Source: Mytilus trossulus (taxonomy: Eukaryota). From it: a DNA stretch of 64,000 nt. Positions 16,901 to 25,722 of the stretch are shown here, in pieces; the first letter of the stretch is position 1, and each line of letters starts with the position of its first letter. The notes under the pieces were generated by a model, which saw only the letters and a list, made by a program, of their open reading frames with translations, did not search any database and was not told the DNA's origin. The DNA lies in contig NC_086375.1 in the NCBI RefSeq assembly GCF_036588685.1, positions 38,130,001 to 38,194,000 on the forward strand, in the 5' to 3' direction. Both the position numbers and the translations under genes were made by a program.

Positions 16901-17343
16901 AGATGATGTGGTTAGAACGGTACACGGAATTGATCTACTACTATGAATTGACTACTAGTAAGTATTTTAAAAAGATTTGGGGTTCCATTCTAAAAGTAAA
17001 TACTCAATCGATTATTAATGAAAAATTATATATAGTCTTCGTTCTTTAAAACAAATGTTTTTGGTGTTTAAAGAATCATTAGCATTACTGAGTGGACAAC
17101 CGCGATACTTATGTCGGTAATAATACTGAATGATGAATCATTTAAGCTGGGGTCACACATTCCCGATTTTTACTACCGTTCTTGACAGGACCATTCCCGA
17201 TTAAAATTGATTAAAAGTCTGATCAAGATCCTGTGAATCGTGGATGGCAATTCAAACTTAAATTAAAATTTGTAAAAAAAATAATTTGATCACGACAACA
17301 ATCAGATAGTGTTCAGGAAGCGTCGATATTCAACCGTTTCTAA

Positions 17344-19033
17344 TGCCCGCGTCACACTGTCCCGATTTTTATATACGATGGACACCCGAATGCAAAAATT
17401 GTAAGTTCGTACGAAGTTGGTCCCGATCCCGTTAAAATACAAAAAGTGACCGAAGCAAGTACGATGCATAACGAAGTCTATACGATGGTGCCGAAATTAT
17501 ATACGATAGCAAAAGATGGACATACGAAGGTTAACCGAAGACGGGCATTTAAGCTTCATATCTCACCCGAAGCCTATACGATGGATCACGAAGGCTACAC
17601 GATGGAATACGATGATGGCGCGATGGCCATACGATGTCTAAAAGACGTCGTGTACAGCTTACGATGCAGAATAATGAAGAAAAAATTGGTTCCCCTATAT
17701 AAGTTAACCTGCAGTGTTGGCGTTTATGATTTTTATTATGTTACTTGATATGAAAAATTGACAAAAAAATAATATTTTACTTGTAAAAGTAAATCCTGAG
17801 CCCGTAATAGCTGCTCTTCTTGTTCCATTTGAATTAGTAGAAACAACGCTGTCGCCTTTCTTGCTCTCATAGATTCATATGATATGAGCTCCATGTTTTG
17901 AGAACGTTTTTGCGACGTCAAACTGTGACATATCGGGAAAAGATTCATTTTTCGACTGATTTTTATCATTCAAACTGATTTAATTTGAAAACGAGTGCAT
18001 GGACCCCCATTTTTTAAACCGACATTTTCTTTCATTTTGCAGGAAGATTATGTGGACCAAATTTTATAAAACTGTAAATAGTGTATTTTTTTTAATTTTG
18101 ATAAATATACAGCAGAAAATTACGTTTTTTTCTCAATTCATGACCATTTGATAAATATGAGTAATTTCTGAACATAAAATGCATACACTTTTAAAATGCT
18201 TATAAAATACAGAAATTACAAATTATTTAACAAAAACAATTTGTGTTTATCTTTTAAAACAAAAAAGTTATGTCTTTCTTTTGAAAAGGAAAATACGGCC
18301 ACAAATCCGAATTTTGAGCAAATATACAAAATTTCGACCTCATTTAACTTTAAAAGTAGCACATAAAGGTATATTTTTTATTACGTATTTGATTTAATCA
18401 GATAAAAAATAGCCTCTATGCAAATTTTCATCAACTTGTAAATATAGGATCAAAACTGTTTCGTATGCCCTTAACTGTCGTATTAGACTGACCAGTGCAT
18501 ATCGCGCATTGCACTTTAAATGTATTTTAGCGCGAAAATTAACTTACATTTAGCTGGATTTATTGCCGTCGTAGTTCCATCTTGTTGCCTTCGTACTTTT
18601 ATTCGATGGCAACACGACGGGATTACGAGGTCTTCACGAATTCGTGTTGTCATCGTAAGACCTTCAGTTAGCTTCGTGATTCATTCGTGTAGACATCGTT
18701 ATGTCAAAACTGACCGATGGAAACGATGGAAACACGAATGCAATACGATGTTCAAAGATGCTTTTCCGGTGACATTACGATGGTGAGGATGGTGATAGGA
18801 ACTCAATACGAACCCTCAACATCGGATGCACCTTCGGGGATTTTTTAACATGTTAAAAAATTTAGAACCCTTCCCGAAGTTGTCCCCGAAGACTAGAAAA
18901 AGTGGCCGATGGTTCTGCGATGGTTAAAGGTGGCACTACGAATAGCTCGATCTGAAACGATCAGTCCCGATTTTGAAAATTTCCATAATCGTGTTTCCAT
19001 CGGCTTAAAAATCGGGACAGTGTGACGCGAGCA
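17344..19033. mobile_element. PIF/Harbinger-type MITE nested in the host
   Basis: 28-bp TIR TGCCCGCGTCACACTGTCCCGATTTTTA with 1 mismatch. TAA TSD at 17341-17343 and 19034-19036. ACGAT-rich subterminal regions. Confidence 0.88.
17690..18470. mobile_element. One-ended AT-rich MITE fragment inside the Harbinger MITE
   Basis: Abrupt shift to AT-rich sequence ending ...TCGTATGCCC|TTAA (Kolobok-like end). No clear matching left TIR. Confidence 0.4.
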
Positions 19034-19103
19034 TAAGCGAATTAGTCCCGATAATCCCGTTCTGAATCCGCTTCTAATCCGATTTGTATTTTTCGCCAGG
19101 TAA

Positions 19104-22100
19104 GGTAGCACTCCACAGTTAGAAAATAAAATTAAAAATGAGCCCCAAAATGTTTTATCATCTCCTATTTCTGGATTTCTAATACATTAACCCAACTGTT
19201 TGTGTTGTACATGTGCATATGTATGTAATCAGTATCTTCCATAGATTCAATTTTCCAAAGTTAAAAGGGTGAAAATTAATTCCTTTTATGTGTATCCATG
19301 GCAACATTCAGCATTTATTTACCATAAAATATTGCAAAAAGGGGGGTGAACATGTCATATATCCCCCCAAAATTTGGATCAAACTAGAATTTCAATGCCT
19401 TTGAGTGATACCTTTTTAGAAACTGTTTTCTTAAATCTTCCTAATGATCAAATAAAAAATGGGTGTCTTTCGCCTCATTTTTTCGTAAAATCCAATCACA
19501 AAGTTCGTGCGATAAAAAGTTGGAAAAAAACATTACAATAATTGCCGGACCAATGTATGGTATGGACATGCAAATACGGACTGTCATACAGAAAACAGCC
19601 TATATTACATACATTACATAACCTTGATGTTCATATAAACCCAATACAAAGGCTATTTTAATACTCAGCTATCCAAAAATGAATTTTATTGCACACTAGC
19701 TCTCATATTTAAAAAATCCACATGGGCCAAAATGCGAAACTACACACCTAACTGTGGAGTGCTACCTTAAGGTGAAATTTTTCCCCTCCTGTCTCAACTT
19801 TTTTTATGTTTTCTGTGTTCTACTAGTTGTTACGATGAAAATGGTACCTTGGTTTTTAAAATTGGTTCAGTAATAAAGATTTTATGAAGGTTAGCAGTTG
19901 GTGTTGAAACGCGACAAAAAGTGATTTTAAAATAAATGCTGGATCATAGTGAAAAACTTCAAGTCTGTCTCATTTTTGGGTTAAATTTCTAAAACTTTTC
20001 CTTTTTTTTATTTGAAATTATAAAATTACCTTAAAAGAGGACAAATTGTACAAGTTTTAGGTGTTTGAAAGCACTTATAGGTAATTTTTGCTGTAAATAG
20101 CATACCTAACCTTGGTTTAGATGCTCTCAAGCAGGGTATAAATTTATAACAGTACTGGCATCATTAAATTTAATTAATGCCAAATTATGATATAAAATCC
20201 TGCTAAAAATGTTTATTTGACTTATTCGCATTCAAAAATATAAAGCGATACATTCTGAGATTATCATATAAAGCGCAATCTTTGGTTACAAGGGCAAAGC
20301 TAACGGGGTACAAATTTAAGACCGCAACATGTCTAAGTGTCAAAATGTATATTTGGTTGCTAAGGACAGTAAACAATAAAATTAACATAAATTGCATTCC
20401 TAGCAGTTTTTTTACCTTCAGAACTAAAACAAGAACATAAAAGACTAAAGATTTGTGGTCAATTTTAACTTTAAAAGTGCATTTCTGTGCTTTCTGATGT
20501 GCCATAAGGTAGCACTCCACAGTTAGAAAATAAAATTAAAAATGAGCCCCAAAATGTTTTATCATCTCCTATTTCTGGATTTCTAATACATTAACCCAAC
20601 TGTTTGTGTTGTACATGTGCATATGTATGTAATCAGTATCTTCCATAGATTCAATTTTCCAAAGTTAAAAGGGTGAAAATTAATTCCTTTTATGTGTATC
20701 CATGGCAACATTCAGCATTTATTTACCATAAAATATTGCAAAAAGGGGGGTGAACATGTCATATATCCCCCCAAAATTTGGATCAAACTAGAATTTCAAT
20801 GCCTTTGAGTGATACCTTTTTAGAAACTGTTTTCTTAAATCTTCCTAATGATCAAATAAAAAATGGGTGTCTTTCGCCTCATTTTTTCGTAAAATCCAAT
20901 CACAAAGTTCGTGCGATAAAAAGTTGGAAAAAAACATTACAATAATTGCCGGACCAATGTATGGTATGGACATGCAAATACGGACTGTCATACAGAAAAC
21001 AGCCTATATTACATACATTACATAACCTTGATGTTCATATAAACCCAATACAAAGGCTATTTTAATACTCAGCTATCCAAAAATGAATTTTATTGCACAC
21101 TAGCTCTCATATTTAAAAAATCCACATGGGCCAAAATGCGAAACTACACACCTAACTGTGGAGTGCTACCTTAAGGTGAAATTTTTCCCCTCCTGTCTCA
21201 ACTTTTTTTATGTTTTCTGTGTTCTACTAGTTGTTACGATGAAAATGGTACCTTGGTTTTTAAAATTGGTTCAGTAATAAAGATTTTATGAAGGTTAGCA
21301 GTTGGTGTTGAAACGCGACAAAAAGTGATTTTAAAATAAATGCTGGATCATAGTGAAAAACTTCAAGTCTGTCTCATTTTTGGGTTAAATTTCTAAAACT
21401 TTTCCTTTTTTTTATTTGAAATTATAAAATTACCTTAAAAGAGGACAAATTGTACAAGTTTTAGGTGTTTGAAAGCACTTATAGGTAATTTTTGCTGTAA
21501 ATAGCATACCTAACCTTGGTTTAGATGCTCTCAAGCAGGGTATAAATTTATAACAGTACTGGCATCATTAAATTTAATTAATGCCAAATTATGATATAAA
21601 ATCCTGCTAAAAATGTTTATTTGACTTATTCGCATTCAAAAATATAAAGCGATACATTCTGAGATTATCATATAAAGCGCAATCTTTGGTTACAAGGGCA
21701 AAGCTAACGGGGTACAAATTTAAGACCGCAACATGTCTAAGTGTCAAAATGTGTATATTTGGTTGCTAAGGACAGTAAACAATAAAATTAACATAAATTG
21801 CATTCCTAGCAGTTTTTTTACCTTCAGAACTAAAACAAGAACATAAAAGACTAAAGATTTGTGGTCAATTTTAACTTTAAAAGTGCATTTCTGTGCTTTC
21901 TGATGTGCCATAAGGTAGCACTCCACAGTTAGAAAATAAAATTAAAAATGAGCCCCAAAATGTTTTATCATCTCCTATTTCTGGATTTCTAATACATTAA
22001 CCCAACTGTTTGTGTTGTACATGTGCATATGTATGTAATCAGTATCTTCCATAGATTCAATTTTCCAAAGTTAAAAGGGTGAAAATTAATTCCTTTTATG

Positions 22101-22576
22101 TGTATCCATGGCAACATTCAGCATTTATTTACCATAAAATATTGCAAAAAGGGGGGTGAACATGTCATATATCCCCCCAAAATTTGGATCAAACTAGAAT
22201 TTCAATGCCTTTGAGTGATACCTTTTTAGAAACTGTTTTCTTAAATCTTCCTAATGATCAAATAAAAAATGGGTGTCTTTCGCCTCATTTTTTCGTAAAA
22301 TCCAATCACAAAGTTCGTGCGATAAAAAGTTGGAAAAAAACATTACAATAATTGCCGGACCAATGTATGGTATGGACATGCAAATACGGACTGTCATACA
22401 GAAAACAGCCTATATTACATACATTACATAACCTTGATGTTCATATAAACCCAATACAAAGGCTATTTTAATACTCAGCTATCCAAAAATGAATTTTATT
22501 GCACACTAGCTCTCATATTTAAAAAATCCACATGGGCCAAAATGCGAAACTACACACCTAACTGTGGAGTGCTACC
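19104..22576. mobile_element. KolobokP-like non-autonomous element: three 663-bp long direct repeats, each with its own TIRs, separated by two ~741-bp internal segments
   Basis: LDRs at 19104-19766, 20508-21170 and 21914-22576, each bounded by the perfect 19-bp TIR GGTAGCACTCCACAGTTAG. Internal segments 19767-20507 and 21171-21913 differ, as far as I can see, only by a 2-bp insertion near 21751. Internal junctions are LDR|TTAA and ATAA|LDR. The outer flanks share TAA. Confidence 0.8.
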
Positions 22577-22727
22577 TAACATTCGACCGAGTCTGTCACG
22601 ACTGCGTCCCGACTCTACCGAATATAATCCGACTGAGATCAGACAGTGACCAGACAACAAACCGACGCTGACGGAAGTAATCCGTTCGAAAACTGTCGGC
22701 ATATTCGGGATGATCAGGTAGTGCCGG

Positions 22728-24459
22728 TGTCCTATAGCCATTCTTCCCCCATGCCAATTTTTCCGGGGGGGAAAACTGGATCGATCCAATATTTCCCCTC
22801 GGAAAAATTGGCATGATCCAACTTTTCCCCCTCAACGTTATAGGGGGAAAACGAGGATCAGGCCAATTTTTCCCCTTTGCGGCATGATAAGCTATTTTTT
22901 CCCCTTTATAAACTTATAACGTCGGCGACGTCAGTTAGAAATGTTTATCCTGAAAAAAGAATATTATCTTTTTTGATTAGTTTAATGGTACCAAAGCTTC
23001 ATCGTATTAATATAAATTGATATGTATTTATATACACCATGTATACATACACACGAAGCACATTCTGATGCAGCGATCACATCCATTCTCAATCGTGAAC
23101 CCTTGGTATCATTGACCTATTGAATACAACCACTTCTGGTCAGTTTGAAGATTTTGACTTTACATTATAAATCATTTTTGTACCGCAAGGTAAAAGTACC
23201 CATCAAAGGCATGGATAGAGAAAAATACTCATCGCCTTTAAGCTTTCATTCAGGAGAAAAAGTCCGATAAGTGTGAAACTTCATCAAACCTAGGGGAGAT
23301 ATGAACCCACTCTCCAACCAGCATGGGAGACGTGCAGTGGAAACTTGGATTGGAAGTACAGGAACTACCTCTATTATTGTGACTCGCTGTACAAGATCTA
23401 CAAAAATATTCCACCTGCCCTAAAGGTGTATATATAGGGTCGACCACGATCTAGCACTTATGATACAAATATCCACCGGAGTTACACGGACCTATTAGTA
23501 AGTAATAAATGGCCACCGTACGGCCCCCAAAAGAAAAAAACCCATATACAGTCGGCTATAAAATGCTCCGACCATACAAATAAGGGAACAAAACAAACAA
23601 AACTAACAGGCTTATTGATTACAAAATAATTTACAAAAAAACCAAACTCAAACGACATGAACCAACAACAACCACTGTAACCGGTACTACATGTTCCTGG
23701 CTTTCGAATGGGCATTGGTGCATAAACAATGTGATGGCCATAAACTCAACCCTCCCCAATGAACCCAACCTAGGACAGCACACCGCAAGAAAAAAATATC
23801 AGTTGAAATTGGCTTCACTAAAAATGTTGAAACGTTGCACAATAATCACTTACATAAAAACAATAGAAACAAAACACCGAAATAAAAGTACTCGCAGCTA
23901 CTGAAACGTATTTCAAAGCTAGTGAAAATATAGACGGACTAGTGAGCATAGACAGACTGGTGAACATGTGAACAGACGGATGAATATGTAGACAGACTGG
24001 TAAACATTTGAACAGACGGTTGAATATGTAGAAAGACTGGTAAACATGTGAACAGACGGGTGAATATGTAGACAGACTTCTCGACACATAGACAGACATG
24101 CAGTTGAGAATGTATAAAGACTAGGGGACACAAAGAAAGACAGATTAGTTGAAACATAGATAGACTGATAAACCTGCAGACAGACTTTTGTTTATGTAAA
24201 AGAACTAAAAATTTGTATCTATAAACCTATTTCTAACACTGTTCGGGTTAATTTTCAGACGTGTATATATCTACAGTAATATCTATAATATAGGGGGAAA
24301 GATTGGCATGGGGGAAAAGTGACTATATGTATACGTATTGTCAATTTTCCGCGGGGGAAGAATGGCAATGATCCAAACTTTCCACGGGGGAAATATTGGC
24401 TCATGCCAGTCTTTCCCCCGGGGGAAAAACTGGCATGGGGGAAGAATGGCTATATAACA
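22728..24459. mobile_element. Ginger1-like non-autonomous DNA transposon, copy 1
   Basis: Termini TGT...ACA. Imperfect long TIR (TGTCCTATAGCCATTCTTCCCCCATGCCA / TGGCATGGGGGAAGAATGGCTATATAACA). Flanked by CCGG at 22724-22727 and 24460-24463. TGT..ACA ends with CCGG TSDs are characteristic of Ginger1. Confidence 0.78.
23925..24180. repeat. 40-bp (2x20) minisatellite inside Ginger-like copy 1
   Basis: TGAATATGTAGA recurs at 23981, 24021 and 24061. Confidence 0.8.
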
Positions 24460-24463
24460 CCGG

Positions 24464-25722
24464 TGTCCTATAGCCATTCTTCCCCCATGCCAACATTTCC
24501 GGGGGGAAATACTGGATCGATCCAATATTTCCCCCCGGAAAAATTGGCATGATCCAACTTTTCCCCTTCAGCGTTGTAAGGGGAAAACTAGGATCATGCC
24601 AATTTTTCCCCCGTGAGAAGCATGATAAGCTAAATTTTCCGCCTTGTAATATAACGTCGGCGACGTCACGATAAGATTTTTTAAATGATAGTAACTTTTT
24701 TCTCAGTTTATAGTTACCAAAGCTTCATCGTGTGAATATACATTTGATATGTATTTATATGTGTTTTTCTATGTTGTGATGTATAACATTGTTTCAGAAA
24801 AAGGGAGAAGGTTTGGCACCATTAAAACTTTTAACGGCTCTCTGCAAATGTATGCACCTGTTCTAAGTCACGAATCTTATGAACAGTAGTTGTCGTTTGT
24901 TTATGTAATTTTAAAATACGTGTTTCTCGTTTCTCGTTTTTATATAACTTTAATAGACAGTTGTTTTTCCCGTTTGAATGGTTTTACACTAGTAATTTTG
25001 GGGCCCTTTATAGCTTTTTGTTCGGTGTGAGCCAGGGCTCCGTATTGAAGGCCTATTGTGGTTTACTTTTATAAATTGTTATTTGGATGGAGAGTTGTCT
25101 CATTGTCACTCATATCACATTTTCGTATATCTATATATATATTTATTCACACGAAGCACATTTTGATCACATCCATTCTCTTTAGTGGACCCTTGGTATC
25201 ATTGACCAAATAAATACAATTACTAGTACTTTAACCACTTAAAACCAGTCAGTAGTTTTTTCCTTGCATGTGGACATATAGACAGTCATTTAAAAATGTA
25301 AAAAGACTAGAGGTCACATATAAAGACTATTGAATAGAGAGACAGACTTGTTGACTCATAGACAGGCCGTACTGTGACCTATAGTTGTTAATGTTTGTGT
25401 CTTTTTTGTCTTTTGTGGATAGTTGATTCATTGGCTGTAGAAAGATTTGTGTAAATGTAAATGAACAACAAATTTGTATATTTATAAATAAATATAATTC
25501 TAACACTGTTCGGTTTAATTTCCAGACTCTATACACACATAGTGAAATCTATGATGGGGGAAAGATTGGCATGGGGGAAAAGTTACTATATGTATACGTA
25601 TTGTCAACTTTCCGCAGGGGAAGAATCACAACGATCCAAAATTTCCCCGGGGGAAAGATTGGCTCATGCCAGTCTTTCCCCCGGGGGAAAAACTGGCATG
25701 GGGGAAGAATGACTATATAACA
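24464..25722. mobile_element. Ginger1-like non-autonomous DNA transposon, copy 2 (head-to-tail with copy 1)
   Basis: Same termini as copy 1. CCGG at 24460-24463 and 25723-25726. Diverged from copy 1 and carries different internal inserts. Confidence 0.78.

What the first reader, a model, noticed from the sequence alone, without database searches (positions are those of the whole stretch)
19101..22579. LTR-like DNA transposon array: LDR-internal-LDR-internal-LDR, each LDR with its own TIRs
Seen: three apparently identical 663-bp repeats, each a self-contained MITE with perfect 19-bp TIRs, alternate with two near-identical ~741-bp non-coding segments. The host sequence resumes after a TAA duplication, so the array sits at one target site. 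Recalled: this architecture was described for KolobokP DNA transposons with long direct repeats. Inference: a very young non-autonomous multimer made by a circular or rolling intermediate or by unequal exchange between LDRs. The outer flanks (GTAA/TAAC) fit a 3-bp TAA duplication rather than the expected TTAA, which is unusual.
Basis: partly seen in the sequence, partly recalled or inferred. Interest (0 to 1): 0.7.

Follow-up and report, generated by a model that had tools for sequence, protein, structure and literature searches.

The report
KolobokP dimer; end repeats stay matched
This is a two-unit copy of a gene-less jumping-DNA element of the already described KolobokP kind; the new point is that the two long end repeats of nearly every single-unit copy examined in this genome match each other far better than any other copy, which likely means both ends are rebuilt from one template when the element moves.

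Summary
Observation confirmed: three identical 663-bp LTDRs with perfect 19-bp TIRs, two internal segments (741/743 bp) and a TAA duplication. It is a (LTDR-INT)2-LTDR dimer of a non-autonomous KolobokP family (Kojima and Bao 2022). It is a sister of KolobokP-N1_MyEd (LTDR 77% identical) whose TIR I did not find in that paper's supplements. The 3-bp TSD is not unusual: 59 of 67 sampled insertions have one, and Table S1 lists TSD 3 for many ~660-bp families. Solos, monomers, multimers up to about 40 units and autonomous relatives (transposase plus His-Me nuclease) occur in the genome. This scan met KolobokP multimers in other genomes before.

New: in 37 monomers the left and right LTDR are each other's closest relatives (37/37 FastTree, 36/37 IQ-TREE; 3.7 differences within a pair, about 23 between elements), and no left/right asymmetry is inherited. 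Shared mutations are distributed like transmitted ones, not like post-insertion ones. This favours an LTR-like reset at each jump, through a one-LTDR circle, over in-place conversion, which is not excluded. Older arrays show stepwise growth in place. The unit number at this locus is not checked with long reads.

The parts
19101..19103 (.). left target-site duplication TAA
19104..19766 (+). LTDR 1 (663 bp; TIRs 19104-19122 and 19748-19766)
   Evidence: homologous end to end with the LTDR of autonomous element L258 (z about 15; 61% identity)
19767..20507 (+). INT 1 (741 bp, non-coding; starts TTAAGG, ends CCATAA; lacks one TG that the other copies have)
   Evidence: 68% identical to the sister family's INT over positions 43-695
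20508..21170 (+). LTDR 2, shared by both units
21171..21913 (+). INT 2 (743 bp)
21914..22576 (+). LTDR 3
22577..22579 (.). right target-site duplication TAA
19034..19103 (.). left part of the multi-copy host repeat that was the target (it continues from 22580; its far end was not determined)
   Evidence: loose ends before 19034-19035; 261 reads continue into the right flank

Best explanation
This is one insertion, two units long and flanked by a 3-bp TAA duplication, of a gene-less KolobokP DNA transposon family that is likely moved in trans by the transposase of a related autonomous family, and whose end repeats are likely both copied from one template at each jump. Steps: (1) SHOWN: the structure, TSD, solos, monomers and multimers, and autonomous relatives with a homologous LTDR, 17/19 identical TIR and the same INT ends. 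(2) SHOWN: in monomers the two LTDRs evolve as a coupled pair. (3) INFERRED: recombination between the LTDRs releases a circle of one LTDR plus INT and leaves a solo LTDR. The circle re-enters a T(A/T)A site in a way that duplicates its single LTDR, either by copy-in cointegration as IS26 does or by being cut out of a rolling-circle concatemer, so each new copy starts with identical LTDRs, like an LTR retrotransposon. (4) INFERRED for this locus, SHOWN in pattern for older arrays: further units are added in place by unequal exchange between LTDRs. Here the second unit was added very recently or arrived with the insertion. Confidence in the identity is about 0.95; the figure given is for the mechanism as a whole.
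For: Family and TSD: (231 exact LTDR/INT junctions, control 0). Autonomous relatives: L258 and L259 carry a PF20700 transposase and an antisense PF05551 nuclease, with INT ends TTAA..CCATAA; a decayed autonomous copy, L278, has this family's exact 5' TIR. Coupling, in 37 monomers: pair difference mean 3.7, median 1, 12 pairs identical, against 22.4 (L-L), 23.1 (R-R) and 22.7 (L-R) between elements; 72 private substitutions are shared by both LTDRs in 28 monomers. Pairs are sister tips in 37/37 (FastTree) and 36/37 (IQ-TREE, support 91 or more). Alleles found in 3 or more monomers sit in both LTDRs 239 times, left only 7, right only 7; recurrent one-sided alleles fall on the same side at 5 and on opposite sides at 8 of 13 sites. 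Timing: private shared changes lie 54:18 in the 5':3' halves, like alleles passed on to several copies (43:23, p=0.26) and unlike private one-sided changes (37:37, p=0.002); 21 elements lean 5' and 3 lean 3'. Neutral polar conversion alone predicts 109 one-sided changes in the 3' half; 37 were seen. Sister family: 3 of 4 pairs are coupled. In-place growth: nested variants in arrays L307, L308, L272. The window's three LTDRs share a private allele at position 620, and both INTs share two private alleles.
Against: No circle or intermediate was observed. In multimers the shared private changes are not 5'-biased (13:22; differs from monomers, p=0.0002). Shared changes were not depleted at sites conserved across families (17 of 56, expected share 0.365; 30 monomers), and the 3' half is not better conserved against the sister family (261 vs 250 identities), so the selection reading of the 5' bias is only partly supported; the split into halves was chosen after seeing the data. 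In-place exchange does occur and could homogenise donors before they jump. One sister pair of four is not coupled (34 differences, nearest other 28-29). No intact autonomous element with this exact LTDR was found (these searches score only their best candidates). The sample leans to intact, young copies.
Confidence: 0.55

Rival explanations
1. Ordinary cut-and-paste of the whole unit. The LTDR pairs are kept alike by frequent gene conversion and unequal exchange in place (monomer to dimer to monomer), with new monomers often cut from homogenised multimers, as Kojima and Bao proposed.
For: Arrays L307, L308, L272 and L060 show in-place spread of variants. Shared private changes in multimers are evenly spread. 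The repeats are only 1.4 kb apart. Conversion between the LTRs of retrotransposons is known (recalled; two searches gave listings only).
Against: One-sided differences (136) outnumber shared private ones (72), and old pairs differ at up to 31 sites, so in-place conversion is slow against residence time, yet no asymmetry is passed to other copies. Shared changes are distributed like transmitted ones. Shared and one-sided sites do not form significant tracts (56 switches vs 61.4 expected, p=0.12). Dispersed monomers mostly carry haplotypes of their own.
Confidence: 0.35
2. The second unit at this locus is an assembly duplication of a monomer.
For: The two units are identical except for a 2-bp TG that could be a read error. 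No long reads of this individual were available.
Against: Dimers with all-identical units and their own TSD occur elsewhere (L064, L298), as does a 3-unit array (L063), and multimers with internal variation cannot be simple duplications. INT-to-LTDR junctions are abundant in another individual's raw reads (433 reads).
Confidence: 0.07
3. It is a retro-element of the TRIM type, or a PIF/Harbinger MITE array, since a T(A/T)A TSD and matched direct repeats fit those too.
For: 3-bp TTA/TAA TSD; LTR-like pair identity.
Against: The LTDR is homologous over its full length to the ends of elements that encode a Kolobok-type (PF20700) transposase and a His-Me nuclease, with no reverse-transcriptase match; the ends are GG..CC with 19-bp TIRs; the sister family is a published KolobokP.
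Confidence: 0.03

Closest known systems
KolobokP-N1_MyEd (Kojima and Bao 2022, PMC9587614; Table S1: 2070 bp, LTDR 663, TSD 3, TIR 21, 642 LTDR and 276 INT copies)
   Same: Non-autonomous, 663-bp LTDR, about 744-bp INT, 3-bp TSD, same INT 3' end, multimers. Its published LTDR start matches the sister family found here.
   Different: A different family: LTDR 77% and INT 68% identical, with a different TIR. Two 15-mers of this TIR had 0 hits in the four supplement files (file 4 was cut when stored). Repbase could not be searched.
KolobokP-3_MyEd (autonomous, 4996 bp, LTDR 687)
   Same: L258 has these lengths (687+3622+687) and the published LTDR start; TIR 17/19 identical to this family; INT ends TTAAGG..CCATAA; 3-bp TAA TSD at L258 (Table S1 lists 4).
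   Different: It encodes a 669-aa transposase and a 127-aa His-Me nuclease; its LTDR is only about 61% identical and its INT is not alignable apart from the ends. It is a candidate helper, not a proven one.
IS26/IS6 pseudo-compound transposons and translocatable units (PMC7885326, passages)
   Same: Copy-in cointegration duplicates the element and the target site, giving two directly oriented identical copies around a passenger, which is the product seen here.
   Different: Bacterial; the transposase lies inside the repeat; 8-bp TSD; shown by experiment. Here the route is only inferred. Kojima and Bao already named IS26 units as an analogy, but did not test LTDR identity.
LTR retrotransposons and TRIM tandem arrays
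   Same: Paired terminal direct repeats that are each other's closest relatives, solo repeats, tandem arrays that share repeats.
   Different: No reverse-transcriptase match in the autonomous relatives; each repeat has its own TIRs; a DDE DNA transposase.

Membership tests
KolobokP (Kolobok superfamily) | LTDR-INT-LTDR architecture, LTDR about 450 or 660 bp | tested here: met
   663 bp; 37 monomers elsewhere
KolobokP (Kolobok superfamily) | Each LTDR has its own short TIR, ends 5'-RR..YY-3' | tested here: met
   19-bp perfect TIR, GG..CC; Table S1 lists TIRs of this length
KolobokP (Kolobok superfamily) | TSD of 3-5 bp depending on family | tested here: met
   3 bp in 59 of 67 sampled insertions; empty site confirmed
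KolobokP (Kolobok superfamily) | Solo LTDRs, (LTDR-INT)n-LTDR multimers, INT-INT junctions that lose 3-4 bp | tested here: met
   (one 4-mer, ATAA or TTAA, remains at INT-INT junctions)
KolobokP (Kolobok superfamily) | DDD/E transposase plus antisense His-Me nuclease in the INT (autonomous members) | tested here: not met
   Absent in this element, as in the paper's non-autonomous families; present in relatives with a homologous LTDR
KolobokP (Kolobok superfamily) | An autonomous partner of the same family supplies the transposase | tested here: inconclusive
   Intact relatives have a 17/19 TIR; only a decayed copy has the exact 5' TIR; the searches score only their best candidates
KolobokP-N1_MyEd (exact family) | Sequence identity with the published consensus | tested here: not met
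   The published LTDR start matches the sister family by eye; this family is 77% identical to that sister
IS26-like copy-in elements (works-like only) | Element duplicated during cointegrate formation | not testable with these tools
   Only the end product (matched repeats plus TSD) was examined
LTR retrotransposon / TRIM | RT-encoding partner; TG..CA ends | tested here: not met
   Relatives encode a DDE transposase with no RT match; ends are GG..CC

The most novel reading that the evidence does not exclude
KolobokP is a eukaryotic DDE DNA transposon that rebuilds both long terminal repeats from one template at every jump, by IS26-like copy-in integration of a one-LTDR circle or by excision from a rolling-circle concatemer. 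LTDR-pair divergence would then date insertions as LTR pairs do. A bolder, weaker add-on (about 0.15): its His-Me nuclease cuts the LTDR/INT junctions, which match the I-PpoI site at 11 of 15 bases with the 4-base core at the cut; that would explain why INT-INT junctions keep exactly one ATAA or TTAA.
Probability: 0.4. Interest if true: 0.7.

Novelty: new member of a known kind. Interest (0 to 1): 0.4.

Why it matters
The array itself is ordinary for KolobokP. The comparison across copies bears on the question that Kojima and Bao left open, namely how the composite structure is kept intact and whether a circle is involved. Plain cut-and-paste of the whole unit predicts separate left and right LTDR lineages, and the data reject that. 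If the reset happens at transposition, it would be a replicative or circle-based route in a eukaryotic DDE transposon, testable with one donor carrying marked LTDRs, and it would give an insertion clock for a DNA transposon.

Tried and rejected
Autonomous partner: the top PF20700 loci and 40 further regions gave 450-bp-class KolobokP and other Kolobok elements; L131 was only an LTDR copy near an unrelated transposase. Widely spaced junctions at C6:80.16 Mb were three monomers in a satellite, not a long INT. As a natural test of conversion they are uninformative, because the copies may have exchanged with each other; they were left out of the 37.

Mosaicism between LTDR halves and INT: four-gamete conflicts were similar within and between regions (0.10-0.16), so there is no support. 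Mutation spectra of shared, one-sided and INT changes looked alike by eye.

Presence of this exact insertion in other individuals: none of the 32 listed pieces (of about 800 laid) from four runs bridged the junction; this proves nothing.

I-PpoI likeness: the outer junctions also match 10 and 9 of 15, most of the match is the TIR start itself, and the nuclease matches I-PpoI only weakly by sequence (E 0.02); it is kept as a lead only.

No structure or complex prediction was run, since it would not bear on the claim.

Full report
Observation. The array is as described: three identical 663-bp repeats (19104-19766, 20508-21170, 21914-22576), each with a perfect 19-bp TIR, and two internal segments of 741 and 743 bp that differ by one TG. 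TAA flanks both ends. The target is a multi-copy host repeat: 261 raw reads of run X22, and contigs of three other runs, pass from the left flank into the right flank with one TAA, so the duplication is 3 bp. Nothing in the array codes for the transposase or nuclease of related elements.

Family. The genome (1.3 Gb) holds 231 exact LTDR-end/INT-start junctions (control 0). An LTDR search scored 40 of 2579 candidates, all 99% or more identical. Fetched loci include solos, monomers, dimers, arrays of up to about 40 units and INT-INT tandems. Of 67 sampled stretches that begin and end with a full LTDR, 59 have a 3-bp TSD (TTA 28, TAA 22, TCA 4, five others); some misses are arrays cut by the edge of the fetched stretch.

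What it is. Kojima and Bao (PMC9587614; I read main-text parts 1-5 of 6, Table S1 part 1 of 2, and passages of supplement 3) describe exactly this: LTDRs of about 450 or 660 bp with their own TIRs, TSDs of 3-4 or 4-5 bp, solos, multimers, INT-INT junctions, and the circle and unequal-crossover models. Table S1 lists TSD 3 for many ~660-bp families. The genome holds a sister family, 77% identical in the LTDR and 68% in the INT, whose start matches the published KolobokP-N1_MyEd. This family's own TIR had no hit in the supplements (file 4 was cut when stored, and Repbase was not searchable). Autonomous relatives L258 and L259 have 687/688-bp LTDRs homologous end to end (z about 15; 61-63% identity), TIRs 17/19 (L258) like this one, INT ends of the same form, a PF20700 transposase and an antisense PF05551 nuclease. 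L258 matches KolobokP-3_MyEd in lengths and LTDR start. A decayed autonomous copy (L278) has this family's exact 5' TIR. No intact partner with this LTDR was found.

New result. I aligned 181 full LTDRs and 120 INTs and took 37 monomers with both LTDRs complete (35 with an intact TSD). Left out were L051 (a duplicate of L050), the satellite-borne duplicates L290 and L291, and truncated copies. The sample came from best BLAST hits and exact junction patterns, so it leans to young, intact copies and to contigs C1-C5. Pairs differ by 3.7 substitutions on average (median 1, 12 identical), against 22.4, 23.1 and 22.7 for left-left, right-right and left-right between elements; 72 private substitutions are shared by both LTDRs in 28 monomers. 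In a tree of the 74 monomer LTDRs plus the window's three, pairs are sister tips in 37 of 37 (FastTree) and 36 of 37 (IQ-TREE, support 91 or more); measured against all 181 LTDRs, the partner is strictly the nearest in 28 of 37 and tied in 3. Alleles present in three or more monomers sit in both LTDRs 239 times and on one side 14 times. In the sister family 3 of 4 pairs behave the same. Cut-and-paste of an unchanged composite predicts separate left and right lineages, and this is rejected. I found no such test in the paper (word search), in the one passage of the 2026 review PMC13565253, or in the listings of searches; subscription papers and bioRxiv supplements were not visible.

When are the pairs matched? 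Private shared changes lie 54:18 in the 5' and 3' halves, like alleles passed to several copies (43:23; family-wide divergence per site 0.044 vs 0.023), whereas private one-sided changes are even (37:37, p=0.002). I read this as follows (inference): shared changes passed through transposing lineages, and one-sided ones arose after the last jump, so each jump delivers matched LTDRs. IS26 copy-in cointegration yields just this product (PMC7885326, passages); cutting units from a rolling-circle concatemer would too. Against this reading: multimers show no 5' bias (13:22); shared changes are not depleted at cross-family conserved sites (17 of 56); the 3' half is not more conserved against the sister family; the split into halves was post hoc; and arrays L307, L308 and L272 show variants spreading in place, so in-place homogenisation of donors remains a real rival. 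Polishing of the assembly could in principle homogenise near repeats, but pairs differing at up to 31 sites persist.

This locus. All three LTDRs share one private allele and both INTs share two; the nearest other LTDR is 2 substitutions away and the nearest INT 6. The doubling is therefore younger than the split from the nearest sampled copy. Arrival as a dimer and doubling soon after insertion look the same. The unit number needs long reads; four short-read assemblies were uninformative.

A lead. Both LTDR/INT junctions match the I-PpoI site (PMC2602781, passages) at 11 of 15 bases, and INT-INT junctions keep a single ATAA or TTAA, as a cut with 4-base overhangs would leave. But the outer junctions match 10 and 9 of 15, and the nuclease resembles I-PpoI only weakly.

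Verdict. A real, young dimer of an apparently unlisted family of a known kind; the TSD is ordinary. The added value is the coupling of LTDR pairs, which narrows the open question of mechanism and can be tested directly. Earlier scan notes on KolobokP multimers in other genomes were read after this reading was reached and were not checked; look-ups by sequence and by the coupling idea returned nothing.

Noticed in passing
L011, L020, L031, L145 (one orientation); L049, L054, L038 (the other): Seven sampled insertions, from different subfamilies and chromosomes, sit at the same base of one abundant host repeat; an eighth (L304) is 7 bases away. An 18-mer over the site has 5,669 exact copies, far too few among roughly 1e8 T(A/T)A sites (my estimate) to explain this by chance. 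A target hot spot.
   Followed up: partly
G000:C6:76.912-76.968 Mb; C3:74.125-74.176 Mb; C3:32.58 Mb; C5:87.92 Mb: Arrays of this family of about 40, about 35 (with two orientation switches), 9 and 5 units, each with matching 3-bp ends.
   Followed up: partly
G000:C1:46.987-47.008 Mb (L032, L152, L270): One LTDR followed by about 30 INTs head to tail, each junction keeping one ATAA; other INT-INT junctions keep TTAA.
   Followed up: partly
G000:C6:91.389-91.445 Mb: The sister family (KolobokP-N1_MyEd) forms a 1405-bp satellite that runs to the end of the contig; it has 750 exact INT/LTDR junctions genome-wide, and most of the first 100 listed lie in arrays. The unit length of about 1.4 kb is kept in both families despite 23-32% divergence.
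   Followed up: partly
window 20499-20513 and 19761-19775; L192, L194, L258, L259, L264: The INT 3' end RCCWTAA is conserved across these otherwise unalignable ~660-bp-class INTs. Both LTDR/INT junctions of this element match the I-PpoI site at 11 of 15 bases. Many published LTDRs begin GGTAGC or GGTGGC (30 word-start hits among 222 records; the 20 shown are all LTDR starts).
   Followed up: partly
G000:C12:6.631-6.644 Mb (L260, L261): An autonomous element arranged LTDR-(INT)3-LTDR, with two of three transposase frames open.
   Followed up: no
G000:C8:72.90-73.12 Mb; C1:22.31-22.38 Mb; C10:3.62 Mb: Long tandem arrays of transposase or His-Me nuclease matches spaced 3.6-4.4 kb apart, apparently multimers of autonomous 450-bp-class families.
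   Followed up: no
L146:5866-5874: A doubled TTAA at one LTDR/INT junction inside the C6 array.
   Followed up: no
window 17340-19037 and 22724-24668: Other repeats flank the array: 32-bp inverted arms at 17340 and 19006, whose right part has many copies, and palindrome-rich repeats at 22724-22933 and 24290-24670.
   Followed up: no
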